A DNA stretch of 63,053 bases, counting the filler, from Aduncisulcus paluster (lineage: Eukaryota), in the NCBI GenBank assembly GCA_024181965.1. It is 31 parts of 31 records of this genome, joined end to end, with 100 filler letters (N's around TTAATTAATTAA, not from the genome) between each part and the next. Parts side by side here need not be neighbours in the genome. Positions count along the whole stretch, not along the records: positions 52,033 to 53,463 come from BQXS01010314.1; 30 more parts are not named here. One strand, 5' to 3'. A program made the translations under genes and the position numbers. This document shows, piece by piece, positions 5,108 to 61,721 of the stretch; position 1 is the stretch's first letter; every line of letters starts with the position of its first letter. The notes below the pieces were generated by a model, which saw only the letters and a list, made by a program, of their open reading frames with translations, searched no databases and was not told the DNA's origin.

Positions 5108-6633
5108 CCTTTCGACACTTTCCTGGAATATAATTCAGACCCATTTTTACAAATTTACAATTTGAATGATAATAATGAAAGAAATAATGCGAGTTCTTTT
5201 TGAACTAAGAACTAATCAGACATATCAAACTCAACCTTCCTTTTGCTTTGCAGCCAAGAAATAAGGATCCCCAATTATCATTACCAATAGTTATTGAATC
5301 GTCCTCTTTATTCCATCTGCCGATAGATTGTTGATATGTGAAGAAATGGAATCAATTGTAAACACCGATACTACATTCTTCGTCTCATTCTTTCGATGTC
5401 CTCCCCCCCGATTTTCACCATTCACCGTTGCATTGATAAAACATATTCCCCGTTCCTGCGTCCATTTATTGCATTATTTGAGGGAAGAAGTGACTAATCT
5501 TGCGTTACCCCCCCAATATTTCTTGTATGGCGATATTTAACCCTTTTTGCCCCCCCAATGCATGTTTCATGTGTCCTTGATTATTCTAATAATAATCCTT
5601 CTCTGCTCGTCAATCGAAATCCATTATTATTATTATTCTGGCTGGAATGTGCCCATTCTCTCTTTGTTTCTCAGTATCTCAGCTGATCAAGCCATTTCAT
5701 GTTCCAGGTATATATATATATGTAAACATATGCATGTAAACCTTATATTCGTCACCTTATCAATGTTTATATTCCTGTTACTTTGCACACATTCGCCCTG
5801 TTATAGATTCACCCCCTTTAGCGTCACGATATCCTTCCTCGTTAGACATTTTGGGCTCAATATTCACACCGTACTCCCTCTCTATGGATATACAACATGT
5901 CTCCATGAGCATGTTCATTTGCAATTCTTTTTGTAGCCGACTACCACGTGACTCATGCCTTATCCCTTGTCATGTTTCCTTTGAGTTTACTCGACGACAT
6001 CCGTGCACTATACGTTTCGTTTGTGACCCTCAGAAATTAGCATCGTTTCTCATCTTCTCTTTCTTCCTTCCCCTTATTTCGTTCACTGTTCCAAGGTTTA
6101 CCAACCGCACCCTTGCTAACAACGCTTTCTACCCCACCCTTAGTACCTAACCCCAATGCGTATCATACCTATCTGTATCCCTTTTACTTTATTTCTTACA
6201 CCTTTTTTACATCTACCCCCGCCCTAGTAGCCCCTAGCATCCGATTGTCACCTTCTGATTGCTAACTCCCTAAATGTCCCTTCTCACATTGATAACTATA
6301 GATGGATACACGATTCATGTATACATCATACTCCTTCGAATTGCCTCGTCCTTTCGTACATTTTAAATTTTTCTTGCATATTTCTATCCTGTGAGACAAT
6401 TTCACTCATTATATCCCAATACTCCTTTGGCTTTGGCACCATCAAGATCGAAAACAATTTGTTGTCCGAATTCCTCTCCATTCTTTCTATTGCTTTGATG
6501 GCCACATCTGCCTTTTCTCCCTCCAATTGTGCANNNNNNNNNNNNNNNNNNNNNNNNNNNNNNNNNNNNNNNNNNNNTTAATTAATTAANNNNNNNNNNN
6601 NNNNNNNNNNNNNNNNNNNNNNNNNNNNNNNNN

Positions 6634-17642: not shown

Positions 17643-17761
17643 TGATTATAGTGATTGAAATCGTAATGATTCTTATGTAGAAATCAGCTCAGACTTTGAT
17701 CTATCAGATATGTTCTTTATTATCTAAACTATCCTTGTGGACACACTCCTTTCGAACTCTC

Positions 17762-19168
17762 ACCCATGGTTGAAGAGGTATAAGTACCGCAAGACGATTG
17801 GTGGGTCTGAGGTAGGATTCAATTGGAACTGATTTAGGATATCTGGGTACATATCCAACAATGCCGCACTCAACCAACACATCCGACGGTACCTGCTCGG
17901 CTCCCTGAGGAAAATCCGAACCCAACTCCCGATCCACATTGCCTCTCTCTCTCGTTGGCTGTGCATGGATGCCATTCTCGGGTGCACTGATTTCACTCGG
18001 AAAGGTCTATTAATAGTATCACGCCATACTGGTTCGACATCCCGAGACGACCAAGAGTTGCTGTTGCGTGCCAAGAAATCGATCAGACATTTCTTCACTC
18101 TCCATCCCATCCTTTCCCATGTTCCTTCTCCATGCTGTCCATGTTCACTCCCTGCTGTCCCTGTGTCACATCAACATTCCCACCACCTTCAGAAACATCC
18201 AAGTTCAGGATCCTCCCCAATCTATCCGAGGGTATCAGCATCGTCATTGCATTCTTATCATCCTTCTACCACTGGTGATAGATCACATTTCCCTGTCTCC
18301 AGCACATCCCCTCCTCCTCATTCACATGCACATGGACATCCACATGCACATGCACATGCATATGGACATAGGCATACACATGGGACATCAGGCTCCTCCT
18401 CCTCCTCATCCATATCACATGATGTATCAGCCTCCTCCTCAGGGGTACTACCATATGCCTCCTCCCCCCACTCATGACATGTCAGGGCCACCTCAAGTTC
18501 AAGGGGCATCACATGGGCAATCGTACATGTCTGCTGCCGCCAGCATGCAACCTCATCCACACTTCTCTCCATCAGGGTCTGAGTTCTCTCCATCGGCTGC
18601 AGACATACAGCCTTTTAGAGCAGTAGGGGGATATCCACAATATCCACAATATCCACANNNNNNNNNNNNNNNNNNNNAACATACTGCAACCAGACCTTCT
18701 CATACCCATCAAGGAACTCACATGCAACAAGAGGAGGAGAAGAAGAGGAAGAAGAAGAAGGATCTAAATATAGACAATGAGAAAGAAGAACCAAGTGATG
18801 AAGAACCAAGTGATGAAGAATCAGGAGAATCAGGAGAATCAGAAGAATCCAGTGGAGGAGATGGTGATCCCATGCCATCGTTTATTCTGTCCCCCATGGT
18901 TGAAGTATACATGTACCGCAAGACGATTGGTGGGTCTGGGTCGGATTCAATTGGAACTGATTCTGGGTACATTATCTGGAGTCTTTGTATTATTCCAAAA
19001 TCAGTGTGGAAAGTTCGAGGAGGAACAACAAAGAAATGTCTTCTTCAACGAGAGTCAACTGGCATTCCCTTTTCTTCTTCCACCTCCACGTGTCATGATA
19101 ATGTTCGACAGCACAACACTGTTGGACATGGCCCATGCATCGGTAAACGTCGAGTCTCATCTTCCTCT

Positions 19169-19212
<44 letters not shown>

Positions 19213-20636
19213 TTCGCTTTCTACATTTTGCCCTGATCATCTAAATCATCTTTCCTCACGAACAGCTCTGTTCCTCACCCAAATTGAGTGCTGCACTTCT
19301 GACGCATTTCCCCCAGATATTCCTCAACCATTCCCATTGGTGTGGATAAAGCTCAGTGAGGGAACCGATCCTCAAAAGTCCAAGGAACTGTCCTGGCTGC
19401 GGCATAATTTCAAAAGTCTTCTGCAGTTTCTCTCCATGTATGAGAGCATATCCATCTTTCACGACGGGAATGTACTCGTGAGACACATCATCAACGATGA
19501 GATTCTGGAGCTTCGAGGGAAACAAGAAGTGCTCGACCGAAGACGTGGCTGCATGAGTGTGAATCCGAGTGGTAGCAGTGGCAGTAGTGGTAGCAGTAGT
19601 AGCAGTGGCAGTGGCAGTAGCAGTGGCAGTAGCAGTGGCAATAGCAGCAATAGTAACAGTGGCAGTAGTGGGGTAGGATGTGATAAATTGTATGTATCAT
19701 CATCGGTGTCATTACCATCATCCAATGGTGACCCCCAGTTCTCCTCCTCCTCATCTCCATGCTCCCCTTTCCCACGTCTTTCCCACTCTATCCATCCTTG
19801 CTTGTTCCTGTTCCGAATGTTTGGAAGGGAGCTATCCAACAATGCCGCACTCAACCAACACATCCGACGGTACCTGCTCGGGTCCCTGAGGAAAATCCGA
19901 ACCCAACTCCCGATCCACATTGCCTCTCTCTCTCGTTGGCTGTGCATGGATGCCATTCTCGGGTGCACTGATTTCACTCGGAAAGGTCTATTAATAGTAT
20001 CACGCCACACTGGTTCGACATCCCGAGACGACCAAGAGTTGCTGTTGCGTGCCAAGAAATCGATCAGACATTTCTTCACTCTCCATCCCATCCTTTCCCA
20101 TGTTCCTTCTCCATGCTGTCCATGTTCACTCCCTGCTGTCCCTGTGTCACATCAACATTCCCACCACCTTCAGAAACATCCAAGTTCAGGATCCTCCCCA
20201 ATCTATCCGAGGGTATCAGCATCGTCATTGCATTCTTATCATCCTTCTACCACTGGTGATAGATCACATTTCCCTGTCTCCAGCACATCACCTCCTCCTC
20301 ATTCACATGCACATGGACATCCACATGCACATGCACATGCATATGGACATAGGCATACACATGGGACATCAGGCTCCTCCTCCTCATCCATATCACATGA
20401 TGTATCAGCCTCCTCCTCAGGGGTACTACCATATGCCTCCTCCCCCCACTCATGACATGTCAGGGCCACCTCAAGTTCAAGGGGCATCACATGGGCAATC
20501 GTACATGTCTGCTGCCGCCAGCATGCAACCTCATCCACACTTCTCTCCATCAGGGTCTGAGTTCTCTCCATCGGCTGCAGACATACAGCCTTTTAGAGCA
20601 GTAGGGGGATATCCACAATATCCACAATATCCACAA
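17762..20636 (+). repeat. Tandem segmental duplication: about 17852-18657 is near-identical to about 19834-20636
   Basis: Near-identical DNA and translations; the first copy lacks the middle of the second. Confidence 0.9.
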
Positions 20637-20705
20637 TATCGTATGCAACAAGGACAACCTCCTCATATTCCTTCTCAAAAGAGAGGGAGTAGTGAGAAGA
20701 AATGA
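18678..20705 (+). CDS. Low-complexity hypothetical protein; C-terminal reading frame uncertain
   Basis: Long open frame to 20455 with an overlapping Pro/Gln/Tyr-rich frame to 20705. Confidence 0.5.
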
Positions 20706-25642: not shown

Positions 25643-26193
25643 CTCATGAAGACAAGGCCGCAGGCGATGCCAGACTTAAGAATTTGCAAGCTGACCGCGT
25701 AGAGTTCAATTTTAACAAAGAACGCGGAAAATACGTTTCCATGACCGTGATGTTCGGTGAGCTGGCCGCACGGGCGCGGGTGTTCCGGCTTTCGCTGGAA
25801 AAGTGGGGCATGGATAGGGCCGATTCAATTGCAGACATGTTCGGCGGCGGGGCTGATGAATCCCGCGAACTCTGTGAAATGCTCGGTGTTGATCCTGTTC
25901 GTTTTTCTCCGGTTGTGGTGGAGTTCGCGCAGTCCAAATCACGTGAACTGGTCAAGATGTGGTTAGCGGATGTCTCCCTGCTGCTCGATGCCTATTCTTA
26001 TGGGCGGTTCCTGACCCCGGAAGCTCAAGAAGAATTTGTTGCTTCCGAAGCCGGGGCCGAGAATCTGCTTGAGTATGTGGATGGGGAAGTCGGGGCGTTG
26101 ATTGAAGGCTGTAACGAAATTATCGGTAATCAGTTTCGGGATTTCATGGCATACAATGCGATTATTTCCAGCCTGATGGAGCGTGCTTCATGA
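25643..26193 (+). CDS. Probable phage terminase small subunit, 5' truncated
   Basis: Overlaps the large-subunit start (ATGA); helical protein with an ERGKYVS motif typical of Nu1-like proteins. Confidence 0.55.
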
Positions 26194-27117
26194 GTTGCAG
26201 ACCTCCTGAAATAAAACTTTGTGAGGGTGAGGTTTCCGTTTTTCGCGCTCCGGTCAAAATTTCTACTTATGACTGGTGCCGTAAAAATCTGCGGTTGGTA
26301 GCCGGCCCGTTCAAGGATCAGCTTTGGCGTTCGGATATGACTCCCCATGCAAAAGGAATCATGGATGCCTTTGACCTGCCCAAAGTCGAGGAAGTTTTTA
26401 TCCTTGGCCCTTCCCAGACTACCAATAAAACCACCATCGCGCAGGGCTGTGTGCTTTCCAGTCTTGCGGAAAAGATCAAGCCTGTGGGTGTTGGCGTCAC
26501 CACCGAGAAGCAGCTTAAGCGCATTATGGATGATCGGCTGCGCAGGTACATTGAAGCAATCCCGGCTTTAAAAAGACGGCTTCGGGCTGACCGTTTTGCA
26601 GTTCAGAAGGATGAAATCACTTTTGATGATGATTCCAAAGTCTACGGAATGTGGTCCGGCTCTGATGCCTCCTATTCCTCGGCTTCCATGGAAATCGTGC
26701 ATTTGTCCGAGGTTGATGCCTATCAGGATTGGGCCTCTGTTTTCAAAATGCTGGAACGGCTGGACGCATATCGCATGTTGGGCACGGCCAAGGCTATTCT
26801 TGAATCAAAGGTTCGCGGCTGCATCGGCAAGCCCTCCATTTATACCCTCGCCCGTGACCGGGCGCAGATGTGGTGCAACATTGAGGCCCGTTGCCCGGCC
26901 TGCGGAACCTATCAGGTCATGACTCTTAAGCGGATCAGCGCACTTGATGAAGACGGCAAGCTGGTGACCGATCCGAAACGGATCATGAAAGAAAAGCTGG
27001 GACGTTATCAGTGCAAGTGCTGCGATTATCGCTGGAGTGATGCAGTGAAAAATGCCGCTCTGCGCGCTGGCCGTTGGCTGGGCGATCTGACCGGGGTTAG
27101 TTCTGTGGCTTTCCATA
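26190..27117 (+). CDS. Phage terminase large subunit, lambda GpA family, 3' truncated (bacterial prophage contig)
   Basis: W....TP motif, Walker A-like GPSQTTNKTT, Walker B-like IVHLSEVDAY, CPAC and CKCC zinc ribbon, GRW; about 52% GC. Confidence 0.88.
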
Positions 27118-28652: not shown

Positions 28653-28742
28653 TGTGGCAATGTATTCCGAAGATTACGTACAATTTACTATAATAAAGGA
28701 TCGGATCGGCGATCTATATTTAGACCATTGAGAGATACCACA
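28653..28742 (-). repeat. 90-bp 3' LTR preceded by a polypurine tract (GGAGGAGGA)
   Basis: TGTGG...CCACA termini, TAAATATA box, AGTAAA signal. Confidence 0.75.
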
Positions 28743-28852
28743 TCCTCCTCCNNNNNNNNNNNNNNNNNNNNNNNNNNNNNNNNNNNNNNNNNNNNTTAAT
28801 TAATTAANNNNNNNNNNNNNNNNNNNNNNNNNNNNNNNNNNNNNNNNNNNNC

Positions 28853-40370: not shown

Positions 40371-40575
40371 NNNNNNNNNNNNNNNNNNNNNNNNNNNNNN
40401 NNNNNNNNNNNNNNTTAATTAATTAANNNNNNNNNNNNNNNNNNNNNNNNNNNNNNNNNNNNNNNNNNNNGTTTAAAATGATGTTTTATGATAATTCATA
40501 TGATTCTCGTATCTTCGAAGCGATCAAAGAGAAGATTCCTACGATGGAAAGCCAGACTATGTTGAACTAGTTCTC

Positions 40576-41499
40576 ATGACCACGATTGATCGCTATGGGT
40601 TTTGTGTATCAGACCTCAGAATGTTTGACGCAGAAATAGAGAAGCAATATGAAGCATGGGGAGTAACAAAAAACTCAATAAGAGAAGTGCCTTCTTCTTC
40701 AAAGCGTTTGTCCTCTTCTTCACCTCATGGATTTCCTGCATTATGGATGACCCCTGTTGGGAATCAGCCAATTATTGTTCAAGTGATTGGAGGCGAGTTT
40801 ACTTGCACATGTGGGATTTCAGTGATGTCCGGCTACCCGTGCTGCCATATGATTCATGCTGCTAAAGTACGTGGTATGAAGATTGGAATCTCAAATTTTC
40901 ATCCCACCCTTCGAAAATCTTCTGCCAGACATACCCTTGAATCCATTGGGATCATTTCTGATCATACATATGGTATATCCCACAATCCGTTTCATTTTCA
41001 TGATGATAGATCGTCATCTCTGACATTATCCCTGACACCAGATCTTCCTTCTTCACAACAACCGAACTCTCCCTCAAGTCCAAGTTCTGGTATTGTTCAG
41101 CTTCAAAGATCAGGTGTGGACACATTAGCTTCTTTCACGAAGGAGGTGGCAATGAGAAAGATAGCTGATCTTTATGAAAGTCATAAAATTAAAGAGCTTT
41201 CTGAAATCATTAGGTTGCTGATAGGGAAGACTAAATATCTATTCAGTCCAACTGAATTAATCAGTATATATCAGTTTCTGGATGCAACTGCAAGTTATAA
41301 GTCTCAGGTTCATTCATTTGAAACAGATCCTATCAATCCTCCAAGTTTGATGAGTCATCATCAACCTAGTTCTGATTCAGGTTTAGCTGAACATGGCATT
41401 TCCATCATGGAAGGCTCACAGTCTCCTCGTTTATCCTATTGTCATAGCCCTCCAAAGCTCTTAGCGTTCTCTGGAAAGAAAAGGGGGAGAAAAAAGTAA
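40576..41499 (+). mobile_element. MULE transposase C-terminal region with a SWIM zinc finger
   Basis: FTCTCG....GYPCCHMI (CxCx~CxH) and terminal KKRGRKK. Confidence 0.7.
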
Positions 41500-42683: not shown

Positions 42684-43192
42684 CTTGATATTTTTGATTG
42701 TAAACAAAAGCAAGTGAAAATGAAACAGAAAGGCAAGGATAAGGATAGAAATGAAATGGAAATATATCCATGTTATTGAATAGCATTGAAATCGTTCATA
42801 AATGTTCTTAACACGTGAAATGGAACTATATCCAGTCCTGAGGGTTCTCCAAAAGCCTGAGATATCGAGAATAAACACCATGGCATGGAAATGAAAATAA
42901 AACATGTTTTTATCATTTACCAGCATNNNNNNNNNNNNNNNNNNNNNNNNNNNNNNNNNNNNNNNNNNNNTTAATTAATTAANNNNNNNNNNNNNNNNNN
43001 NNNNNNNNNNNNNNNNNNNNNNNNNNCCGTATAAAAGATTTTTAGGTTTATTTGTTTAGTACTACCACACAAGCTGCTCCCGTCCTAAATTTGCTTGGAC
43101 TTTTTAATATTATTTCTTAATGTTAGTTCGTGAATTAAAACAAACAGGAATAAGAAAGTTTTTCGAAAGAATCATTATTGACTGATCATCAG

Positions 43193-43253
43193 TGTGGCGA
43201 TCTCTATGGAGAAGATGCAGACAAATTTACTCAATAAAATCTAGGCTACCACA
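43193..43253 (-). repeat. Candidate 61-bp 3' LTR after polypurine tract AAAGAGGAGGA
   Basis: TGTGG...CCACA ends; AGTAAATT and ATCTTC blocks shared with 28653-28742. Confidence 0.6.
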
Positions 43254-43437
43254 TCCTCCTCTTTCTGAAGGCGATGGGCAGAGACTTTTTCAAGCGTGAA
43301 AAATAATTACTTGTGGGATCTGGTTAGCGCAATAAGATGGCTCTAGTGGAAAACCCATAGGAAAGAATAGAATAGAAAACCTACAAACCACTAGTGCACT
43401 GGCTCAATGATATGTATAAAATAACTGTATAGTTAGC

Positions 43438-44220
43438 TCAACGCCAGGATAACCTGGTGCTTGGTCGAGATTCCGTAGCTTGGGTCGATGCTGGCTCAGA
43501 GTGATTGTGATTGGCTTGATTAGCACTCACTCTAGAAGCTGTGGAGCGTACCGGTATAATTGGTTCATCTGTTAGAGCCAATGTGGAGCTGGCAGAGGTT
43601 AGCTGACTGCCGGTTTGGCCGGACAGACGGCTGGAGCTTTGACTGGTTCGAGCTGGGATTGGCACTGATTGTAAAGATGGCACTGATTGTGAGGATTGGT
43701 CCTGAGCTCGAAGTCGTTGGCTTCTTCGTCTGTTGGTTGGAGCTTCGTTTTGAAGAGGGGTGTCTCTTGCTGTTGGCACATAGACATCTTCTTCTTCGTC
43801 CCTCCTCTTTCTTGAGGCTCTGGACCTTCCCGTTCTTGAACCCCGCGTAGCTATGGTGCGAGTAGCTCTCGTTGAGCTTGGCTCTTCAAACCGTTCAAGC
43901 GTACTGTTTGGCTCACGCCGTAACGCACTGACGAACTTAGTGGTCTTCATTAGTTCCTTGTAGAGCTCCCTTAGTATTGGTCTATTCCTGACATACTCAC
44001 GAAATTGAGGTGTACGGACAATGTACGTATGAGGTTCTCTAGTTATCTCTTTGAACCCCAACCATTTGACATCAAATTGGTACTTGTCAACTGGTTCAAT
44101 GGCGTCAACTTCGTAATGGTCGAGAATTTCTTCAACAGGGTAGTTCTGCTGGTCCAGTAAATTTAGTCCAATTAGTTCTTCCAGTGTCAGTCGGGAGTCA
44201 TCAAACGGTATTGCTTTGGC
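43438..44220 (-). mobile_element. Chromovirus pol C-terminus (chromodomain plus disordered tail)
   Basis: The frame extends to the contig edge: YPVEEILDH...YQFDVKWLGF...TREP. Confidence 0.75.
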
Positions 44221-47180: not shown

Positions 47181-48027
47181 TCAATGCTGTCCAGTCGTTG
47201 ACAGAGACAATTGATGAAATGATTCTTCAACAATTTCTTGAGCTCTTACAATTTGACTTCTAATCTGATGGCCTTCCAGATCATACCAATATTTCTTCAT
47301 AAGAACTCGATAAACAAGAAATTCTTCCTCTCCTAACGATGATCGAGTAATTAAAATATTTAAGGTGCAGCAAAGGGTAAATATGTCCGCATAGCTATCT
47401 CCACGAAGATGATAATGCGATCTTAAAATTTTCCACGTACCCTTTAATCTTCCGAAGAATTGTTCAACAACGAGCCGATCCTGTGCTCTATGATGCTGAT
47501 CAATTAGTTCTTCCACTGAAGAACCATCATGATCGCTTATTAGCGGGGTTATAGGATTTGGTCTATGTCAATCCATGATGTGTTGAATCACACAGAATAC
47601 GATATTCTCCAATATGTGATACTATTTCGCGGGTCATGTCAAATAGTGCTTTATCATGTAAACTTGCTGGATATCTGGAATTGACAAAAATTGCGTGTCC
47701 CGTGACACTCGTGATTACCTGGGAGTTTATCCCGTAAGCGTGATGCTTGTGGGAATAGAAGGCCTTACGGTCCTGAAATGCCAGTGTGGCACCACACTGA
47801 ATTGTTGTATGGTACCATCCACCACAAGTCTTACATAGTTCAGCATGGCAAATGATGTCACTTCAGTTTCGGATGACAGGGATAACAGTTGAATTTCGTA
47901 AACGCAATCCAACTTTGATCCAACTGTAAATAACTTCCTTAATGAATTTTTCCTGGTCCGGTAACGGACACGTGACCTGCTGAGCATGGAAATAATTGAA
48001 GGCTCCATGCTGAGCTGAGTTTGATAT
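47181..48027 (-). pseudogene. Decayed PIF/Harbinger (DDE_Tnp_4) transposase
   Basis: RLVVDGT, HDKALF and VVEQFFGRLKGTWKIL in broken frames. Confidence 0.8.
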
Positions 48028-48127: not shown

Positions 48128-48874
48128 GATGATGCAATCCCGCAGCTTGCCAACAAGCTTTACAATCTCATGGCTGATAACGATCGCGACGTGACTCAGG
48201 ATAACAGCCTTGGATTCCTAGCTTTAGGCACTTTCTACGGTCAGACCAAGTCCGTGCCGCATCCCTCCGGTAAAATCATGAGTGGCGACAAGGAACTCGC
48301 TGCTTTTGAAACCAACGGCACCGCTCAGGTCACTGTCAAAGGCGATGAACCGCTTTCCATCGTGCTTGATGCAGCTCCAGAAGAAGGCACATTTGTATGG
48401 GCCATCAACAGCCGCGCAGTTCCGACCATTGAAAGCTGGAAGCCATATTCCAACGGTCTGGATATCAAACGTGAATTCCTGACCCGTGAAGGTGAACTGC
48501 TCGACTTGGGTGACATTAAGCAAGGCCAGCTCGTTGCCATGCGCACCGTGGTAACCTCCTCAGCCAAGCCTGTATCCAATGCAGTCATCAGCTGCCTGTT
48601 GCCGTCCGGTCTTGAGCCGGAGAACACCAAGCTTGCAACCCGCGAGGATCTGCCGTGGATTGCCAAGGGCAATGTTCAGCCTGATCACGTGGATATCCGC
48701 GATGACCGGGTACTGGTCTTTTCCAACATACCCGTCAAAGGCAAGGTCGAAAACGTGACTCTGCTCCGCGCCGTGACCCGTGGGGAATTCAAAGTGCCCC
48801 CGGTGCAGGTGGAAGGTATGTATGATCCTGAAAAATCAGCTGCTACCGCATTAGGTAAGATGATTATTAAATAA
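48128..48874 (+). CDS. yfhM: Bacterial alpha-2-macroglobulin C-terminus
   Basis: LLPSGLEPEN, DIRDDR, RAVTRGEF.VPP..VE.MY.P. Confidence 0.92.
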   Translation, partial: DDAIPQLANKLYNLMADNDRDVTQDNSLGFLALGTFYGQTKSVPHPSGKIMSGDKELAAFETNGTAQVTVKGDEPLSIVLDAAPEEGTFVWAINSRAVPTIESWKPYSNGLDIKREFLTREGELLDLGDIKQGQLVAMRTVVTSSAKPVSNAVISCLLPSGLEPENTKLATREDLPWIAKGNVQPDHVDIRDDRVLVFSNIPVKGKVENVTLLRAVTRGEFKVPPVQVEGMYDPEKSAATALGKMIIK

Positions 48875-48875
48875 G

Positions 48876-48960
48876 AATACCTCCGGCGGTTGGGGAAGGG
48901 AAACTTTTTGTAAAAAGTTTCCCTTCCCCAGACCCCATCCCTTCCAAAACTTTTAATAGT
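48876..48960. repeat. Intergenic REP-like palindrome (19-bp perfect inverted repeat, 48891-48930)
   Basis: TGGGGAAGGGAAACTTTTT-gt-AAAAAGTTTCCCTTCCCCA, preceded by CCTCCGGCGG. Confidence 0.8.
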
Positions 48961-48984
48961 ACAGTCGGTTAATAAAATTTCGTA

Positions 48985-49349
48985 ATGAGGAAGAAAATTC
49001 TTTTTATATTTGGTGGAGTGTTATTCTTCCTGATCGCGTCTTTTTTTGCGCTTGATTTTCTATTACCTTTCCCTGAACACAAGCTGCATCAGCCTGTTGC
49101 CTCGGTTGTAAAAGACCGTGACGGCAAAGTATTGCGTATTTTCCTGCCCCCGGACGGGGCGCGGCGCATGCATGCGGATTTTAATAATATTTCTCCGATC
49201 TTGAAGAAGACTTTGCTTGCTTCAGAAGACCAATGGTTCGAATATCATCCGGGAATTAATCCCATTTCCGTTGTCCGTGCTGCAATAATGAATATTGCCG
49301 CAGGGCGTGTTGTCTCCGGGGCCTCGACTATTCCCATGCAGATTGCGCG
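48985..49349 (+). CDS. pbpC: Penicillin-binding protein 1C, N-terminal fragment
   Basis: TM anchor, EDQWF..HPGINP, SGASTIPMQ; the usual position downstream of alpha-2-macroglobulin. Confidence 0.92.
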
Positions 49350-51553: not shown

Positions 51554-52797
51554 TTTGTAACAAAATTTAAGAATTTTTAAATTCTTTCTCCATTCGTTTG
51601 TTCGTACTATAAATTTAGGTAAATTATATCGTATATATATCCACTGTCTTATGAATTTATTTTATTGCCCAGTTCTTATATGGAAATTCTGATGTTGTGG
51701 GGGATATTGTAAAATTTGATTGAATTTCTCAGAACACCAGAGTTTTTATAAGCAAAAATATCGAAATGGCAAAAACCAGATACATTTTGCTTTATTTAAT
51801 GTTTTTTTATTCGTGGTGACTATTTTTTGTTTGTAAGTGAGCCACGGAAGGTACACATGTACCCACAAATAATTTAGCATTCTTTGGGGCCACATGAAAC
51901 ATAGGTCACACTCAAATCCCCATCAATGTAAANNNNNNNNNNNNNNNNNNNNNNNNNNNNNNNNNNNNNNNNNNNNTTAATTAATTAANNNNNNNNNNNN
52001 NNNNNNNNNNNNNNNNNNNNNNNNNNNNNNNNTATGTAAAATGATTGCCTTGGGTGTGTTTTCCAAGAAGAGATTTCTCGATATTAGTATATAACCTTCC
52101 AGAACTTCCGATAGTCGCTACAACTTCCATTACTCCCGAGGTTGTCAACATGATGTCCATATATCCATTTATTATGATTTGTATAAACGTAAAATAATTA
52201 ATAATGCTAATCCTCAGAACGCTATCTTGGATCAATGAGATTGACTGAGATGAGAACTCCATGGATAAATTTTCAAAAATTATCGTATTGAATCTATGCC
52301 TTGACAATGTTAATATTAATTAGTAATTAATAATTACCAATTGAAACAACTCATCAATTTAACTGAAATCTATGATATCAGCAAACGACTACTCCAACCA
52401 GATTCAGGATATCCAGCTATAAGGACCATTTTCCCTTCCATCGTTGTACAAATTATGTATATTATTTTCTTTCCATATCTTGCCGAAATATGCGAGATTG
52501 TCATGGGATTTATAGATATATCACTGCACTCACGACCCCAAACAATCTCAATCTTCCATTTCCCCCATCTTCCTTTACGCCACACACAAACAAGGTTTCC
52601 ACACGCGGAGAGATAGAAAGAGAAAATGGACGATCTTCCGGACAAAGATAGTGTGGGCTCAGTCAACGGAGAGAAGAGAGAATTTGGAGGTTGCTCAGAA
52701 CTTAAACGATGAGGAGAAGCCAAGAGAGCACTTCCCGAAGGTTCCATACTGCAATCTTTTTCAATAACAACACATTCTCCATCCAAAATCTCTCCGG

Positions 52798-52887
52798 TGT
52801 GGTAGTACGTATAATAAACGATTTACAATTTATTGATATGACAGTTCACCGAACGTGTCTATTTATAGATCCTGAGACATTACCACA
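52798..52887 (-). repeat. 90-bp 3' LTR after polypurine tract AAGAGGAGGA
   Basis: 7-bp terminal inverted repeats TGTGGTA/TACCACA, TATAAATA, AATAAA. Confidence 0.8.
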
Positions 52888-53089
52888 TCCTCCTCTTACT
52901 TTACGGGAGTATCTTCGATATCTCACGGTTCTACAAGGGTATCTTGATCAAAAGGGTTACAAGCGTAGCGTATAACACTGCGTTTGTGGTGTGTATAGCA
53001 CGTATCTCTGTCCTGTCGTTCTCTCTGAGGGGCTCTGCGTCCCTTTCTGGCACTGTTGTTCTCGGTTGCACGGCGTCCACCGGTCTTAT

Positions 53090-53437
53090 ACCTGTCACTG
53101 TACCTCTATCACTGTATCTGTCACTGCCACTGTCTCTGACCCTGTCACTGTCGCTGCTACGGACACTGTCTCTCACTCTGACTCTGGCTCTGTCACTGTG
53201 TCTGTCGCTGTCACTGTCACTGTCACTGTCTCTGCTACGGACACTGTCTCTGACACTGTCACTGTCTCTGACCCTGTTACTGTCACTGTCACTGTCACTG
53301 TCTCTGCTACGGACACTGTCTCTGACACTGTCACTGTCTCTGACCCTGTTACTGTCACTGTCACTGTCACTGTCTCTGCTACGGACACTGTCTCTGACAC
53401 TGTCACTGTCTCTGACTCTGTTACTGTCACTGTCACT
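53090..53437. repeat. Hexamer-based (CTGTCA) minisatellite with a 72-bp higher-order period
   Basis: GCTACGGACAC anchors at 53156, 53234, 53306 and 53378. Confidence 0.9.
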
Positions 53438-56415: not shown

Positions 56416-57189
56416 ACTATACTGTACTATACTGTACTATACTGTACTATACTGTACTATACTATACTGTACTATACTGTACTATACTGTACTATACTAT
56501 ACTATACTATACTATACTGTACTATACTGTACTATACTATACTGTACTATACTGTACTATACTGTACTATACTATACTGTACTATACTGTACTATACTAT
56601 ACTGTACTATACTGTACTATACTGTACTATACTTTACTATACTATACTATACTGTACTATACTGTACTATACTGTACTATNNNNNNNNNNNNNNNNNNNN
56701 TATACTGTACTATACTATACTATACTGTACTATACTATACTGTACTATACTGTACTATACTGTACTATACTGTACTATACTGTACTATACTGTACTATAC
56801 TATACTATACTGTACTATACTATACTGTACTATACTGTACTATACTGTACTATACTGTACTATACTATACTATACTGTACTATACTGTACTATACTGTAC
56901 TATACTGTACTATACTGTACTATACTGTACTATACTGTACTATACTGTACTATACTATACTGTACTATACTGTACTATACTATACTGTACTATACTATAC
57001 TGTACTATATATATATATATATACTGTACTATACTATACTGTACTATACTATACTATACTGTACTATACTGTACTATACTGTACTATACTGTACTATACT
57101 GTACTATACTATACTGTACTGTACTATACTGTACTATACTGTACTATACTGTACTATACTATACTATACTATACTGTACTATACTGTAC
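56416..57189. repeat. Pentamer satellite of mixed ACTAT/ACTGT units
   Basis: Directly visible. Confidence 0.98.
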
Positions 57190-57421
57190 ATTTTAATTTT
57201 AGGAGATTATAGCTCATCATCTCAAGGCAAGCTTTTTGCCCGTTAAATCTACATATTCACTGCATTTTAGCAGTTTTGAATATGTTTCACAATCACTATC
57301 ATAACGATAGAAAATTCCAATCTTAAATAATAATTATTTAAAATCAATTATATATTTGAGTGAAATCAGTAATATTTCTTCTTGAACCGCTCGAATCAGA
57401 TCTAATATTTCAAAAAATATT

Positions 57422-57798: not shown

Positions 57799-57953
57799 AT
57801 CTCATCAAGATCATATTTATTTAATATACTCTCAAATAATGAAGGTAAAATATCACTCGTTTTACCATCTTTAGAGAAAGTTTCTATATGTTCATTATCT
57901 TTATAAACACCTATTTGCAATGGACTAGAAATAGATATTACGAGTACTTTCAA
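57799..57953 (-). CDS. TsaB-like glycoprotease-family protein, N-terminal fragment
   Basis: ISISSPLQIGVY...GKTSDILP; follows lpxC as in Campylobacterota. Confidence 0.65.
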
Positions 57954-57954
57954 T

Positions 57955-58851
57955 TTAGACTGTTGCATATGCTTTCTCTAATGATTCCACTTCATCTTTA
58001 ATCTCTTCAAGATCAACTACTTCATAGTTAGAAGGATCTTCTAGTAACTTTTTTGTTAAAAGATGATTTAGATGATGACTCCCTGCATGTGCATTATATT
58101 CACCAATCATTGTATATCCTAAAAGAGACATATCACCAATTGCGTCCAAAATCTTATGTCTTACAAATTCATCATGATATCTTAATCCATCAGGGTTTAA
58201 TATCTTTTGATCATCTAAAACAATTGCATTGTCAAGACTTCCACCTTGTGCTAAACCTATACTTCTAAGATATTGCACTTCATGTAAAAAACCAAATGTT
58301 CTTGCTCGACTAATATTTTCTTTATACTCTTCAATTGAATAATCAAATCGAAATGATTGTTCTCCAATTGCAGGGTGTTCAAAATCGATTGAGAAATCAT
58401 AAATAATATGATTTGATGGTAAAAGTTTGGCAAATTTACCATCACTTTTCACTTCTACTTCTTTTTTCACACGAATCGCTTTTTTACTTTTTGTTTGTTC
58501 TTTAATACCAACTTCATCTAATAACATACAAAATCCGCTACTGCTACCATCTAAAATAGGAATCTCATCATTGTCTAAAACTACTCTTAAATTATCAATC
58601 CCATAGGCATAAATTGCAGACAGTAAATGTTCAATTGTAGATACAACTACATCATTTTTCCCTATTACAGTTGCCATTTGAGTGTCTATAACATACTCAG
58701 GTGATAATGGAATAGATATCGCTTCATCATTTCTGTAAAACACTATACCCATATTATCTTCTAAAGGCTCTAGTCTCATTTTTACAGGAACGCCTTTATG
58801 TAACCCTATTCCAACAATTTCTACACTTTTATTAATTGTTCTTTGTTTCAT
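57955..58851 (-). CDS. lpxC: UDP-3-O-acyl-N-acetylglucosamine deacetylase
   Basis: MKQRTI, GIGLH, TIEHLLSA, ARTFGF, HKILDAIGD. Confidence 0.98.
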   Translation of the reverse strand: MKQRTINKSVEIVGIGLHKGVPVKMRLEPLEDNMGIVFYRNDEAISIPLSPEYVIDTQMATVIGKNDVVVSTIEHLLSAIYAYGIDNLRVVLDNDEIPILDGSSSGFCMLLDEVGIKEQTKSKKAIRVKKEVEVKSDGKFAKLLPSNHIIYDFSIDFEHPAIGEQSFRFDYSIEEYKENISRARTFGFLHEVQYLRSIGLAQGGSLDNAIVLDDQKILNPDGLRYHDEFVRHKILDAIGDMSLLGYTMIGEYNAHAGSHHLNHLLTKKLLEDPSNYEVVDLEEIKDEVESLEKAYATV

Positions 58852-60230
58852 TATTTACCATCTATATCTTTTTTTGCTTGCTTAAGAATATCTGTTATTC
58901 GAACCTTTATCCAGTTTCTATCCATCCATTCTATTGGGTTAACTTCTACTCCTTGAATTAAAACTCCAAAATGTAAATGATCTCCAAAAACAGCACCTGT
59001 TGCACCTGTATGTGCAATCTTTTGATTTGAGGAAACTGTTTCGCCCACATCAACTTGTTGAGAACTTGTATGTGCATAAAGTGTTGCCAGTCCCATCCCA
59101 TGATCTATGATAATTGAATTTCCGTATAACCCTAAATAGTTTTTAAATACAACAATACCATCGTTTGATACTCGAACTGGTGCTTTTTTTACACTTGCCC
59201 AATCTACCCCTAAATGCCACGCTTCATTTATTTTTTCGCCATTTAAATAATAATGTCGTCTATCTCCATATCCGGCTACAGTTTTAGAACCTCGCAATCT
59301 TTTAAAAGCTTTAATATTAAAACTTTCAACCATTCTATTGTTAGTGTTTTTTTCAATAGTTTGCTCAATAGTTTTAACATTTTTTTCTCGTAATTCTCTA
59401 TTCGAATAGATAAATATATCTTCTAAATTATCTGGTATTTTTTCAAAACTTTGCTCTAAAACACTTGCACTTACATTTTTAATAAATTTTTCGCTTACAG
59501 TAATATTATCATTTTTAACTGTCTTCCTTTGGATATAAAAAGGGACTTTAGTTATTGTCTTATTATCAGCTTTATCTGTAACAATCAAATTTACTCTGTT
59601 AAATGATGTTATATCCATAGGCCAAGCCACAAGCGCAACATAATAGTTTTCTTTATGATATGGTGTCAATTTAAAGTTTTTTATATCATTGAAAGAGATA
59701 TATGCATCTTTTAAATTTTCATCTTGAACTTTTACAACAACAACTGCACTACCACCTCTTTGTATATATCGAGAATTTCCAAGAACATTCGCAATCGGTT
59801 TTTTTGTATCAATACTTACATCAATATTTTGAATAACTTTATTACCCTCAAGAAAGTTCCATTTGCTATTATCAACTACTTCTACTTCTAGAGTTGTATT
59901 TTGCCCTTTGTAAAACATATCTAATTTTGGTGGTTTAATACTAAGAGTAATCTCTTTTTCTGTTTTCTTCATCACTTCTTGAGCTAATACTATATCTTTT
60001 GCTCCATCTTTAAAAGTAACTTTATAATATTTAATCCCACTATCATCTTTTAACTTTATCTCTACAGGAGATTTCAAATTCCAATAAATGTTATCTTTTG
60101 ATTCTACAGTTGGCTTATTTTGCTCAAAAGCAGGTGAGAGATATAAGTAAGCTACTCCTATAATAATTGCAATAATTACTACACTTATAATGATACCCAA
60201 TGGGCTATTTCTATTTTTTTTAAATGTCAA
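58851..60230 (-). CDS. M23 family metallopeptidase, Campylobacterota type
   Basis: N-terminal TM segment, HLGVD, YAH, HLHF; 1-bp overlap with lpxC. Confidence 0.95.
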   Translation of the reverse strand: MTFKKNRNSPLGIIISVVIIAIIIGVAYLYLSPAFEQNKPTVESKDNIYWNLKSPVEIKLKDDSGIKYYKVTFKDGAKDIVLAQEVMKKTEKEITLSIKPPKLDMFYKGQNTTLEVEVVDNSKWNFLEGNKVIQNIDVSIDTKKPIANVLGNSRYIQRGGSAVVVVKVQDENLKDAYISFNDIKNFKLTPYHKENYYVALVAWPMDITSFNRVNLIVTDKADNKTITKVPFYIQRKTVKNDNITVSEKFIKNVSASVLEQSFEKIPDNLEDIFIYSNRELREKNVKTIEQTIEKNTNNRMVESFNIKAFKRLRGSKTVAGYGDRRHYYLNGEKINEAWHLGVDWASVKKAPVRVSNDGIVVFKNYLGLYGNSIIIDHGMGLATLYAHTSSQQVDVGETVSSNQKIAHTGATGAVFGDHLHFGVLIQGVEVNPIEWMDRNWIKVRITDILKQAKKDIDGK

Positions 60231-60341
60231 GATATTTCCTCNNNNNNNNNNNNNNNNNNNNNNNNNNNNNNNNNNNNNNNNNNNNTTAATTAATTAANNN
60301 NNNNNNNNNNNNNNNNNNNNNNNNNNNNNNNNNNNNNNNNN

Positions 60342-61721
60342 CTGCACAGCTCACGGCCCAAGAAGGTGGCCGCCCAAGCAAAGGGACTGTCGAAAGAAGA
60401 ACTGGGACAGCAAATTGAGGCTGCTTTGAATAGTAAACATAATTATTGTTATCCGTTGATCTTAAAGATACACTGCAGATATGCACATGTGTTCGATCTG
60501 AGTGAACTGCCACCGGCTAGATACAAGCCGTTCAAGGTCATCTTACAGGATGGCGCAGAGGTGAAGAAGAGTTCACTGAGACAGATACCCTGGACGAAAG
60601 GTCCCTTGTTAGAGGAAGAACTCAGCAAGTTGAAGAAAATGGGAACGATCATTGAGATCAAACATGAAACACGGTACGTTAGTGCCATTGTCCTGGCCCC
60701 AAAGGGAGATGGAATTCGTTTGTGTGTGGACTATAGACCACTGAATGCAGCAACGGTAACCTTGCACCGAGCAGTGGCTCGTGTTGACGAGGTGGTAAGA
60801 ATGCTGCATGGCAAGAAGTTGTTCATCATATTGGACTTGAAGTCAGGATACCACCAGGTACTTGTTGAAGAGGAGAGTCGAGAATTGACTACTTTTATAA
60901 CCAAGTTTGGCACCTTTCAATATGTGAGAATGCCATTCGGTTTGAAGAATGCACCAGCGTATTTCACGATGATGCTAGAGGATATTCTAGTAGGACTGGT
61001 GAGAGTCAGTTGTCTAATATATATCGATGATATAATTGTCTTCGGAGAGAATCTCCCAGAACTGATCTCCAACTATGTGAAGGTGTTGGACCGCTTGTCA
61101 AAGGCAAACATGAAAGTCAACGTGTTGAAAATGCAACTCGTTTGTGAAGAGGTCAAGTACCTTGGATATATGATCAGTGGGAAGGGAATTGCCGCTTCAG
61201 AAGAGAAGATAGAGCAATTAGATAAACTGCATGTGATCACTAACAAAAGTGAATTGAAGTCTCTGTTGGGACTTGCAGCTTATCTCAGCCCCTTTATCCC
61301 ATGTTATGCCGCGAGGACAAAATGCCTGTCATGCTTGTTGAAAGACAAGGTCCCGTTCGAGTGGGGAACGGAACAGCAAGAAGCTGTCGATGGAATCATT
61401 GAGACACTCAAGATCAGAACGAGGCTGGCACAGCCAGACCCAGAAGCTGAATTCCACCTGTATACAGATGCTTCCTGTGTGGGAGTCGGTGGAGTGCTCT
61501 TTCAAAAGAAAGGTGATAAAGAAGAGATTCTAGAGATCGTGTCAAAGACATTGTCAGAAGTAGAGACACGCTGGCCCATCATGGAGCTGGAAGCGTTTGC
61601 TATCTTCTACTGTATAAAGAGGTTGAGATATTTCCTCTTGGGAAAACCTTTCGTGGTCCATACTGACCACCTGAATCTGACGTTCATAAAGTCAGCGACG
61701 AAAGCTAAAGTGCAGAGATGG
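60342..61721 (+). mobile_element. Ty3/gypsy pol fragment: reverse transcriptase plus RNase H
   Basis: RLCVDYRPLN, LDLKSGYHQ, MPFGLKNAP, YIDD, TDAS, ELEAFAI, TDH; uninterrupted. Confidence 0.97.

What the first reader, a model, noticed from the sequence alone, without database searches (positions are those of the whole stretch)
52798..52897. Very short (90-bp) LTR with complete signals: type copy of a micro-LTR family
On the minus strand a polypurine tract (AAGAGGAGGA) directly precedes TGTGGTA...TACCACA, which is only 90 bp long. It has a TATA block at positions 19-30 and AATAAATTGTA at 54-64. A second copy on another contig (28742-28653) is also exactly 90 bp, follows the same type of tract, and aligns without gaps at 46/90 identity by hand count. 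The conserved bases cluster in the termini, the TATA block and the poly(A) block. LTRs are usually hundreds of bp, so conserved spacing despite sequence turnover suggests a minimal, functional LTR architecture (inference). Default LTR finders would probably miss LTRs this short.
Basis: partly seen in the sequence, partly recalled or inferred. Interest (0 to 1): 0.8.

Follow-up and report, generated by a model that had tools for sequence, protein, structure and literature searches.

The report
Tiny-LTR retrotransposons with palindromic primer site
This 90-base stretch is the true end repeat of a recently spread jumping gene in a free-living relative of Giardia; its whole group has unusually short end repeats and carries a short self-complementary sequence where such elements normally bind a tRNA to start copying themselves, which hints at an unproven way of starting that copying.

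Summary
Confirmed. Window 52887-52798 is an exactly 90-bp LTR. Copies elsewhere in the genome fix both ends: 12 right LTRs, 7 left LTRs and 3 solo LTRs with 4-bp target duplications. Overlapping contigs tie it to a gag-like ORF and a chromodomain integrase. The host is probably Aduncisulcus paluster. The 'second copy' is another family; a third, 61-bp family is also in the window. Six single-contig Ty3/gypsy elements have paired 78-96-bp LTRs around gag-pol. Length alone is not new: 76-90-bp LTRs are in print, and the TATA-like block is missing from 6 of 14 LTR types. The stranger feature is the primer site. All 23 left-LTR junctions examined (11 found without a palindrome-biased search) lack the tRNA-type TGG site. 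Each has a perfect 12- or 14-nt palindrome starting at the LTR's last A, in 11 different sequences. Best reading: priming on a partner RNA through this duplex (about 0.5, untested). The closest precedent is fungal GalEa Copia. The scan noted the palindrome and short LTRs earlier on other contigs of this genome; complete paired-LTR copies were not in the notes I saw.

The parts
52798..52887 (-). Right (3') LTR of family A, 90 bp, TG...CA ends with a 7-bp terminal inverted repeat
   Evidence: both ends fixed by 26 copies; 3 solo copies with 4-bp duplication
52888..52897 (-). Polypurine tract abutting the LTR
52859..52868 (-). Near-symmetric TATA-like block (LTR positions 20-29); promoter role inferred only
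   Evidence: in 8 of 14 LTR types, 33-39 nt before the poly(A)-like block, either orientation
52827..52834 (-). AATAAA-like block (LTR positions 54-61); poly(A) role inferred
   Evidence: in 14 of 14 LTR types; 36-40 nt from the LTR end in families A, B, C, D, E, F, M and L172
52942..52953 (-). Imperfect echo of the family's 5' palindrome in the 3' untranslated region, 54 nt before the LTR
   Evidence: read by eye; not tested against shuffles
53092..53437 (.). Tandem array (periods 6, 18 and 72 bp) inside the element's 3' untranslated region, variable in length between copies
52033..52797 (.). Flanking DNA of this insertion (not part of the element)
   Evidence: this flank occurs in 1 of 26 copies
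28653..28751 (-). Family B right LTR (90 bp) with purine tract at the contig start; a different family, 46/90 identical to A
43193..43263 (-). Family C right LTR (61 bp, no TATA-like block) with purine tract
43441..44220 (-). End of the family C polyprotein frame; resembles the chromodomain region of family A by eye
   Evidence: no Pfam match at E 0.1
60342..61721 (+). Reverse transcriptase-RNase H piece of a member of the same genome-wide clade; family not assigned

Best explanation
The 90 bp are the right LTR of a recently spread, protein-coding Ty3/gypsy retrotransposon with a chromodomain integrase, from a clade in this genome whose LTRs are mostly 61-102 bp (identity about 0.95 sure). SHOWN: LTR ends, purine tract, 4-bp duplication, gag-like frame starting 55 nt after the left LTR, integrase (zinc finger, core, GPY, weak chromodomain), no TGG primer site, and a perfect palindrome beginning at the LTR's last A whose letters change in matched pairs between families. 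INFERRED: the two packaged RNAs pair through the palindrome (12-14 bp). One strand is cut near the end of the duplex, probably by the element's RNase H as in Tf1 (recalled). The new 3' end primes minus-strand DNA on the partner exactly at the LTR end. Copying that primer back during plus-strand synthesis would rewrite the site as its own complement, which would explain why symmetry survives while sequence changes. Among the A-like families the LTR shrinks by losing U3, while the distance from the poly(A)-like block to the end stays at 36-40 nt. The confidence given is for the priming mechanism.
For: (ends, duplications). Searches (overlaps at 97-100% link the LTR to the gag-like frame and to the integrase; domains; protease-RT-RNase H-integrase order in sister elements); 23 of 23 junctions have a 12- or 14-nt palindrome at position -1, in 11 different sequences; 0 of 23 have TGG in the first 8 nt; at most 141 of 119,017 CA sites in the loci held do the same, true junctions included. 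11 of 11 junctions found without a palindrome-biased pattern have it; 13 of 14 hits are perfect although the arms were not forced to pair (3 families; control 0); predicted two-molecule duplex -6.8 to -15.4 kcal/mol (family A -12.6) against -1.8 to +2.9 for the lone hairpin (A +2.0); 0 of 5 outside elements with readable LTR ends have the palindrome, and 4 of 5 have TGG.
Against: No RNA, cDNA or primer data bear on it (one search gave contigs only). The all-A/T palindromes give weak duplexes (-6.8 to -8.0 kcal/mol). One cut leaves a primer that still carries R-U5, so a second cut or a stop signal is needed and none was identified. The core is not free: 13 of the 23 junctions share one six-base core, which could also mean a bound protein or host RNA. 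Family A was not linked to its own reverse transcriptase: the overlap chain ends at the integrase zinc finger. For families I, K, L and O the LTR end rests on palindrome-followed copies only.
Confidence: 0.5

Rival explanations
1. The palindrome is a dimer-initiation or packaging signal, like retroviral dimer sites. Priming is done by something else: a host small RNA, a tRNA fragment, or RNA from the element's 3' untranslated region, where an imperfect echo of the palindrome lies.
For: The duplex energies fit dimerisation equally well. An echo is visible 45-95 nt before the right LTR in families A, B, C, D, E and M; in A, C and M some changes would keep G-U pairing (read by eye). PMC5445492 raises the dimer-site comparison (passage).
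Against: Retroviral dimer sites come in addition to a primer site and lie in a loop (same passage). Here the palindrome starts at the LTR's last base in 23 of 23 junctions and no other primer site was seen. One fixed host primer cannot match 11 different sequences. In B, D and E the echo does not match the bases next to the LTR, where a primer's 3' end must pair. The echo was not tested statistically, and I did not see one in the 260 nt before the right LTR of the six short-LTR full-length elements (by eye).
Confidence: 0.25
2. Fold-back priming in one molecule: the RNA is cut just after the palindrome and snaps back on itself, or a GalEa-like hairpin with a downstream arm presents the primer.
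For: The geometry would also start synthesis at the LTR's last base. The minimum-energy fold closes the palindrome on itself in 5 of 12 junction regions (C, F, M, L175, L181) and pairs it with a short downstream arm in most others.
Against: The lone hairpin is predicted unstable in 21 of 23 cases. The four central bases stay self-complementary in 23 of 23, which a loop would not need. None of 12 junction folds beats its shuffles (z -1.43 to +1.20; best 18 of 200).
Confidence: 0.15
3. The palindrome acts as DNA (a symmetric site for a protein dimer at the promoter or at the cDNA end), and the elements prime by an ordinary but unrecognised route such as an internal tRNA region.
For: The LTR's TATA-like block is also near-symmetric and occurs in both orientations, so the host may have factors that bind symmetric sites.
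Against: A DNA-binding protein should conserve sequence rather than symmetry; the site changes in length (12 or 14) and at most pairs. The host tRNA set was not compared.
Confidence: 0.1

Closest known systems
Conserved Hairpin Site of fungal GalEa Ty1/copia elements (PMC5445492; passages and section 10 read, supplements not read)
   Same: No tRNA primer site; a palindrome that includes the last A of the left LTR; the same two alternative six-base cores occur in both groups; mechanism unknown.
   Different: GalEa is Copia with 138-311-bp LTRs, a 10-nt palindrome and a conserved second arm 12-41 nt downstream. Here the domain order is Ty3/gypsy, LTRs are mostly 61-102 bp, the palindrome is 12 or 14 nt in 11 versions, and no conserved hairpin was found.
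Tf1-type self-priming chromoviruses (Tf1, Tf2, Maggy, Skippy, Cft-1; passages in PMC5445492, PMC6934838, PMC5006619)
   Same: Ty3/gypsy order, chromodomain integrase, no tRNA site, probable use of the element's own RNA.
   Different: Tf1 needs a site complementary to the first bases of its transcript in the LTR and is not palindromic. Here the longest such complement is 4-6 nt in 22 of 23 junctions and 8 nt in one.
Skipper chromoviruses of dictyostelids (PMC5006619; passages and section 12 read)
   Same: Protist Ty3/gypsy with chromodomain, no TGG site, no LTR complement, unknown priming.
   Different: Skipper has a polypyrimidine stretch, not a palindrome, and LTRs of about 200-390 bp in the table rows seen.
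SMART/FRetro129 and its partner FRetro64 of grasses (PMC3281118; passages read)
   Same: LTRs of 85 bp (solo 79-87 bp) and 76/90 bp, so 90 bp is not a record.
   Different: FRetro129 is non-coding and FRetro64 is Copia; both are described with a primer site. Here short LTRs are the rule across a diverse coding Ty3/gypsy clade and go down to 61 and 63 bp.

Membership tests
LTR of an LTR retrotransposon | Same unit at both element ends, TG...CA termini, sharp boundaries | tested here: met
   family A, across contigs; 7 sister elements on one contig each; families D, E and L172 end in TA
LTR of an LTR retrotransposon | Purine tract before the right LTR and a 4-6-bp target duplication | tested here: met
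   3 solo A LTRs with 4 bp; 4 bp in 2, 5 bp in 4, only 3 bp in 1 of 7 full-length elements
LTR of an LTR retrotransposon | U3-R-U5 with mapped start and poly(A) sites | not testable with these tools
   only contigs were available; host-motif test inconclusive
Ty3/gypsy (Metaviridae) | Domain order protease-RT-RNase H-integrase | tested here: met
   RT-RNase H-integrase order in all 7 full-length sister elements, with a Pfam protease match before RT in 3 of them (L168, L170, L181)
Ty3/gypsy (Metaviridae) | For family A itself: integrase last, with GPY motif; own RT linked | tested here: inconclusive
   integrase with GPY is the last domain before the 3' region; the RT was not reached by overlaps
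Chromovirus | Chromodomain at the integrase end | tested here: inconclusive
   above the Pfam cut-off in L170, L171, L175, L181; below it for family A (E 4.6e-4) and L169; no match in L168, L172, L111
Chromovirus | RT groups with named chromovirus lineages | not testable with these tools
   the tree has no named reference lineages
tRNA-primed LTR elements | TGG-type site within a few bases of the left LTR | tested here: not met
   0 of 23
Tf1-type self-priming group | Primer site perfectly complementary to the transcript 5' end in the LTR | tested here: not met
   4-8 nt at best
Fungal GalEa with Conserved Hairpin Site | Palindrome including the last A of the left LTR | tested here: met
   23 of 23
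Fungal GalEa with Conserved Hairpin Site | Conserved second arm 12-41 nt downstream forming a hairpin | tested here: not met
   no shared fold; 0 of 12 better than shuffles
Fungal GalEa with Conserved Hairpin Site | Copia domain order (integrase before RT) | tested here: not met
Skipper | Polypyrimidine stretch after the left LTR | tested here: not met
   junction sequences
TRIM/SMART (non-autonomous miniature elements) | Short non-coding interior under 1 kb | tested here: not met
   gag-like and integrase frames linked to family A; sister elements 4.5-9.4 kb

The most novel reading that the evidence does not exclude
These elements use a way of starting reverse transcription that is neither tRNA priming nor Tf1-type self-priming: two genome RNAs pair through a palindrome at the LTR edge and one becomes the primer for the other, which keeps the site symmetric by itself. 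The same solution arose separately in fungal Copia elements. It may also let the LTR shrink to about 60 bp.
Probability: 0.4. Interest if true: 0.82.

Novelty: new variant of a known kind. Interest (0 to 1): 0.6.

Why it matters
The GalEa paper left open what a palindrome at the primer site does and said no model fitted. Here 11 natural versions show that symmetry, not sequence, is kept, and they supply matched pairs for a direct biochemical test. If RNA-RNA priming holds, it adds a priming route to the retroelement cycle, seen in both Copia and Ty3/gypsy. In practice, searches with a 100-bp LTR floor (as used in PMC13148404) or a tRNA-site filter would miss most of this clade, so LTR elements of metamonads may be under-counted. 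The 90-bp length by itself is modest news.

Tried and rejected
Host promoter and poly(A) motifs: the AATAAA-like hexamer followed 12 of 36 stop codons (shuffle mean 7.5, maximum 14), and the TATA-like block preceded 1 of 24 starts (shuffle mean 0.19); inconclusive on a small, noisy set. Expression: no RNA holder listed. Laying contigs of X1 and X2 on a tandem junction gave no piece spanning it and no joints, so tandem copies, one-LTR circles and assembly collapse could not be told apart. Outside relatives: none of the best 20 of 80 metagenome loci scored above 39% RT identity. The 18 repeats in 80 viral-collection loci were contig-end overlaps with no readable LTR. A pattern scan of the viral collection gave 50 stretches; they were not examined and had no control, so they count neither way. 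The two unnamed proteins inside the clade have no genomic context. tRNA genes in elements: 0 in 23 loci; Rfam gave only a weak T-arm-like match in L170 (E 0.071). Rejected: an LTR longer than 90 bp; TRIM/SMART; a tRNA or Tf1-type primer site; a conserved hairpin. Literature searches found no paper on these elements or on a palindromic site in Ty3/gypsy; most subscription journals and Repbase are not covered. A recalled 77-bp LTR of silkworm Mag was not confirmed.

Full report
Setting. The window is 31 short contigs joined by linkers. The finding lies on a 1431-bp contig (52033-53463). The genome is 29.6 Mb in 23,235 contigs. The four best matches of an RT piece in the window are proteins of Aduncisulcus paluster, up to 94% identical, so the host is probably this free-living fornicate. 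The window also holds contigs that look bacterial.

The tract-plus-start 15-mer occurs 45 times against 0 for its control. The LTR has 33 matches at 99-100%. One search found 26 full-length copies with 0-2 mismatches in the 50 loci then held. Twelve are right LTRs with 12 different flanks, 7 are left LTRs with 7 different flanks and one constant downstream sequence, 3 are solo LTRs with a 4-bp duplication, 3 are tract-LTR-downstream junctions, and 1 fits none of these. Both ends are therefore exact, and the near-identity of the copies points to recent spread (inference).

What element it belongs to. A gag-like frame starts 55 nt after the left LTR and continues through overlapping contigs at 97-99% identity, with no Pfam match. 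Upstream of the right LTR lie a variable tandem array and then the end of a long frame with a weak chromodomain match (E 4.6e-4, below the cut-off). Overlaps at 99-100% lead on to an integrase with GPY motif, core and zinc finger (two of these contigs are integrase hits). The chain was not taken as far as the RT, and no single contig holds a whole family A element.

The group. The unit at 28742 is family B and the one at 43253 is family C, 61 bp. Families D and E (about 98-102 bp), F (97-98 bp) and M (63 bp) share the design. I fetched 20 stretches around integrase hits, chosen mostly for long open frames. Among the 50 loci of 3 kb or more then held, 7 had paired repeats around an RT-integrase frame: six with LTRs of 78, 78, 87, 87, 95 and 96 bp, and one of 238 bp. 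The pairs are identical except for one mismatch in L170. Target duplications are 5 bp in four, 4 bp in two and only 3 bp in one. The order is RT-RNase H-integrase in all seven, with a Pfam protease match before RT in three, which makes them Ty3/gypsy. In a quick tree of 87 RT pieces, all 24 Aduncisulcus rows and two unnamed proteins form one branch (SH-aLRT 99, no bootstrap, careful search unfinished). Family A's own RT is not known to be in that tree, and the tree has no named lineages.

LTR anatomy. Of 14 LTR types, 14 carry the AATAAA-like block and 8 the TATA-like block, 33-39 nt before it and in either orientation. In A, B, C, D, E, F and M the poly(A)-like block lies 36-40 nt from the LTR end while total length runs from 61 to 102 bp, so length varies at the U3 side, and the 61- and 63-bp types have lost the TATA-like block. 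A 90-bp unit with both signals is one state, not the minimum. Function of either block is inferred; the test on host genes was inconclusive. LTRs of 85 bp and of 76 and 90 bp are in print (PMC3281118, passages). Average lengths for six animal and fungal Ty3/gypsy groups are 174-695 bp (PMC3601003, passages and section 6). I found nothing as short as 61 bp, but the library is incomplete.

The primer site. After every left LTR examined there is no TGG site. There is instead a perfect palindrome starting at the LTR's last A: 14 nt in 17 junctions and 12 nt in 6, in 11 different sequences (23 of 23). Twelve of the 23 were found with patterns that favour the palindrome or its core. The other 11 (A, B, C, D, M and the six short-LTR full-length elements) were found through the LTR, the purine tract or the integrase, and all 11 have it. 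At most 141 of 119,017 distinct CA sites in the loci held show a palindrome of 12 nt or more, true junctions included. A pattern that left the arms free gave 14 hits, 13 of them perfect, from three families, with control 0. A second pattern gave 137 hits against 4 (these include 3' echoes). Among 80 outside loci, 5 had readable LTR ends: none has the palindrome and 4 have TGG. Complementarity to the LTR of the Tf1 type reaches only 4-8 nt. None of 12 junction regions folds better than its shuffles.

How it probably works. Symmetry is kept while letters and length change, the centre stays self-complementary, and the predicted duplex of two molecules is far more stable than the hairpin (family A -12.6 against +2.0 kcal/mol). 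That favours pairing between two RNAs. The site starts at the LTR's last base, where a primer must end, so I read it as a primer site: one RNA is cut near the duplex end, probably by RNase H as in Tf1 (recalled), and primes on the other. Copying the primer back would restore the site as its own complement. Everything after the sequence pattern is inference. The trimming of the primer's 5' side is unexplained, and the all-A/T versions pair weakly. I put this at 0.5, a dimer signal with another primer at 0.25, fold-back at 0.15 and a DNA site at 0.10. An imperfect echo of the palindrome lies 45-95 nt before the right LTR in A, B, C, D, E and M, in the window at 52953-52942 (by eye). It was not tested against shuffles and was not seen in the six short-LTR full-length elements, so it stays a lead.

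Comparison with what is known. Fungal GalEa Copia elements have a 10-nt palindrome that includes the LTR's last A, with the same two alternative cores, plus a second arm; the authors say no model fits (PMC5445492, passages and section 10; supplements not read, and they may list more variants). Bivalve TRIMs also lack a clear site (PMC6934838, passages). Skipper has a polypyrimidine stretch (PMC5006619, passages and section 12). These elements resemble GalEa at the primer site but are not GalEa, Tf1-type, Skipper or TRIM. Hexamita has annotated LTR elements without such detail in the passages seen (PMC11787283). Passages of PMC11117352, PMC4978885, PMC13148404 and bioRxiv 10.64898/2026.05.21.726589 added nothing on the primer site. 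No searched paper describes these elements (searches listed under Tried and rejected).

Earlier scan notes. After forming this reading I found that the scan had noted the palindrome, the short LTRs and the 3' echo on other contigs of this genome, and a similar palindrome in microsporidia, which I did not check. They are not independent support. One note said no complete copy had been seen; supply seven.

Verdict. A real 90-bp LTR, ordinary as an LTR and not a record in length, in a coding Ty3/gypsy clade with very short LTRs and a palindrome in place of the tRNA site. New variant of a known kind; interest 0.6.

Noticed in passing
L170 about 5640-5710, L175 and L181, 100-230 nt before the right LTR: Antisense tRNA-like stretch (T-arm-like in all three, A-box-like in L175) in the 3' untranslated region of three chromodomain elements. 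ARAGORN calls no tRNA; Rfam gives only E 0.071 in L170.
   Followed up: partly
L006, L012, L057, L060 (families B, D, E), 110-140 nt before the right LTR: A second TATA-like block in the 3' untranslated region, followed about 30 nt later by a degenerate copy of the LTR end and palindrome; it could be an internal promoter for a short RNA or the relic of a duplicated LTR.
   Followed up: no
L013, L016, L020 (family A); L017, L025 (family D): Purine tract, one LTR and the palindrome in a row: head-to-tail tandems, one-LTR circles or assembly collapse.
   Followed up: partly
families D, E and L172: LTRs end in TA instead of CA.
   Followed up: partly
L171 2563-7080: Only a 3-bp target match around a complete element with identical LTRs, whereas the others give 4 or 5 bp.
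   Followed up: no
L041, L045, L055, L058, L088, L108: These elements are often nested in one another; L055 has left LTRs of families C and A about 440 bp apart.
   Followed up: no
window 43027-43075 (+): End of a further LTR, resembling family A's last bases, facing the family C LTR on the same contig.
   Followed up: no
window 53092-53437: The array is open in several frames (Thr/Val-rich or Asp/Ser/Arg-rich) and varies in length between copies; it lies after the polyprotein stop, so coding is doubtful.
   Followed up: partly
window 25643-27117, 48128-49349, 57799-60241: Contigs that look bacterial or phage-derived by eye: a terminase-like frame, alpha-2-macroglobulin and transglycosylase-like frames, LpxC-like and M23-peptidase-like frames (labels from recall, not searched).
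   Followed up: no
window 47184-47567 (-), 40507-41496 (+): A DDE transposase piece (Pfam DDE_Tnp_4, E 1.2e-7) and a frame with a weak SWIM finger.
   Followed up: no
window 56416-57212 and 17760-20705: A long five-base simple-repeat array, and a duplicated stretch on either side of a scaffold gap, probably an assembly artefact.
   Followed up: no
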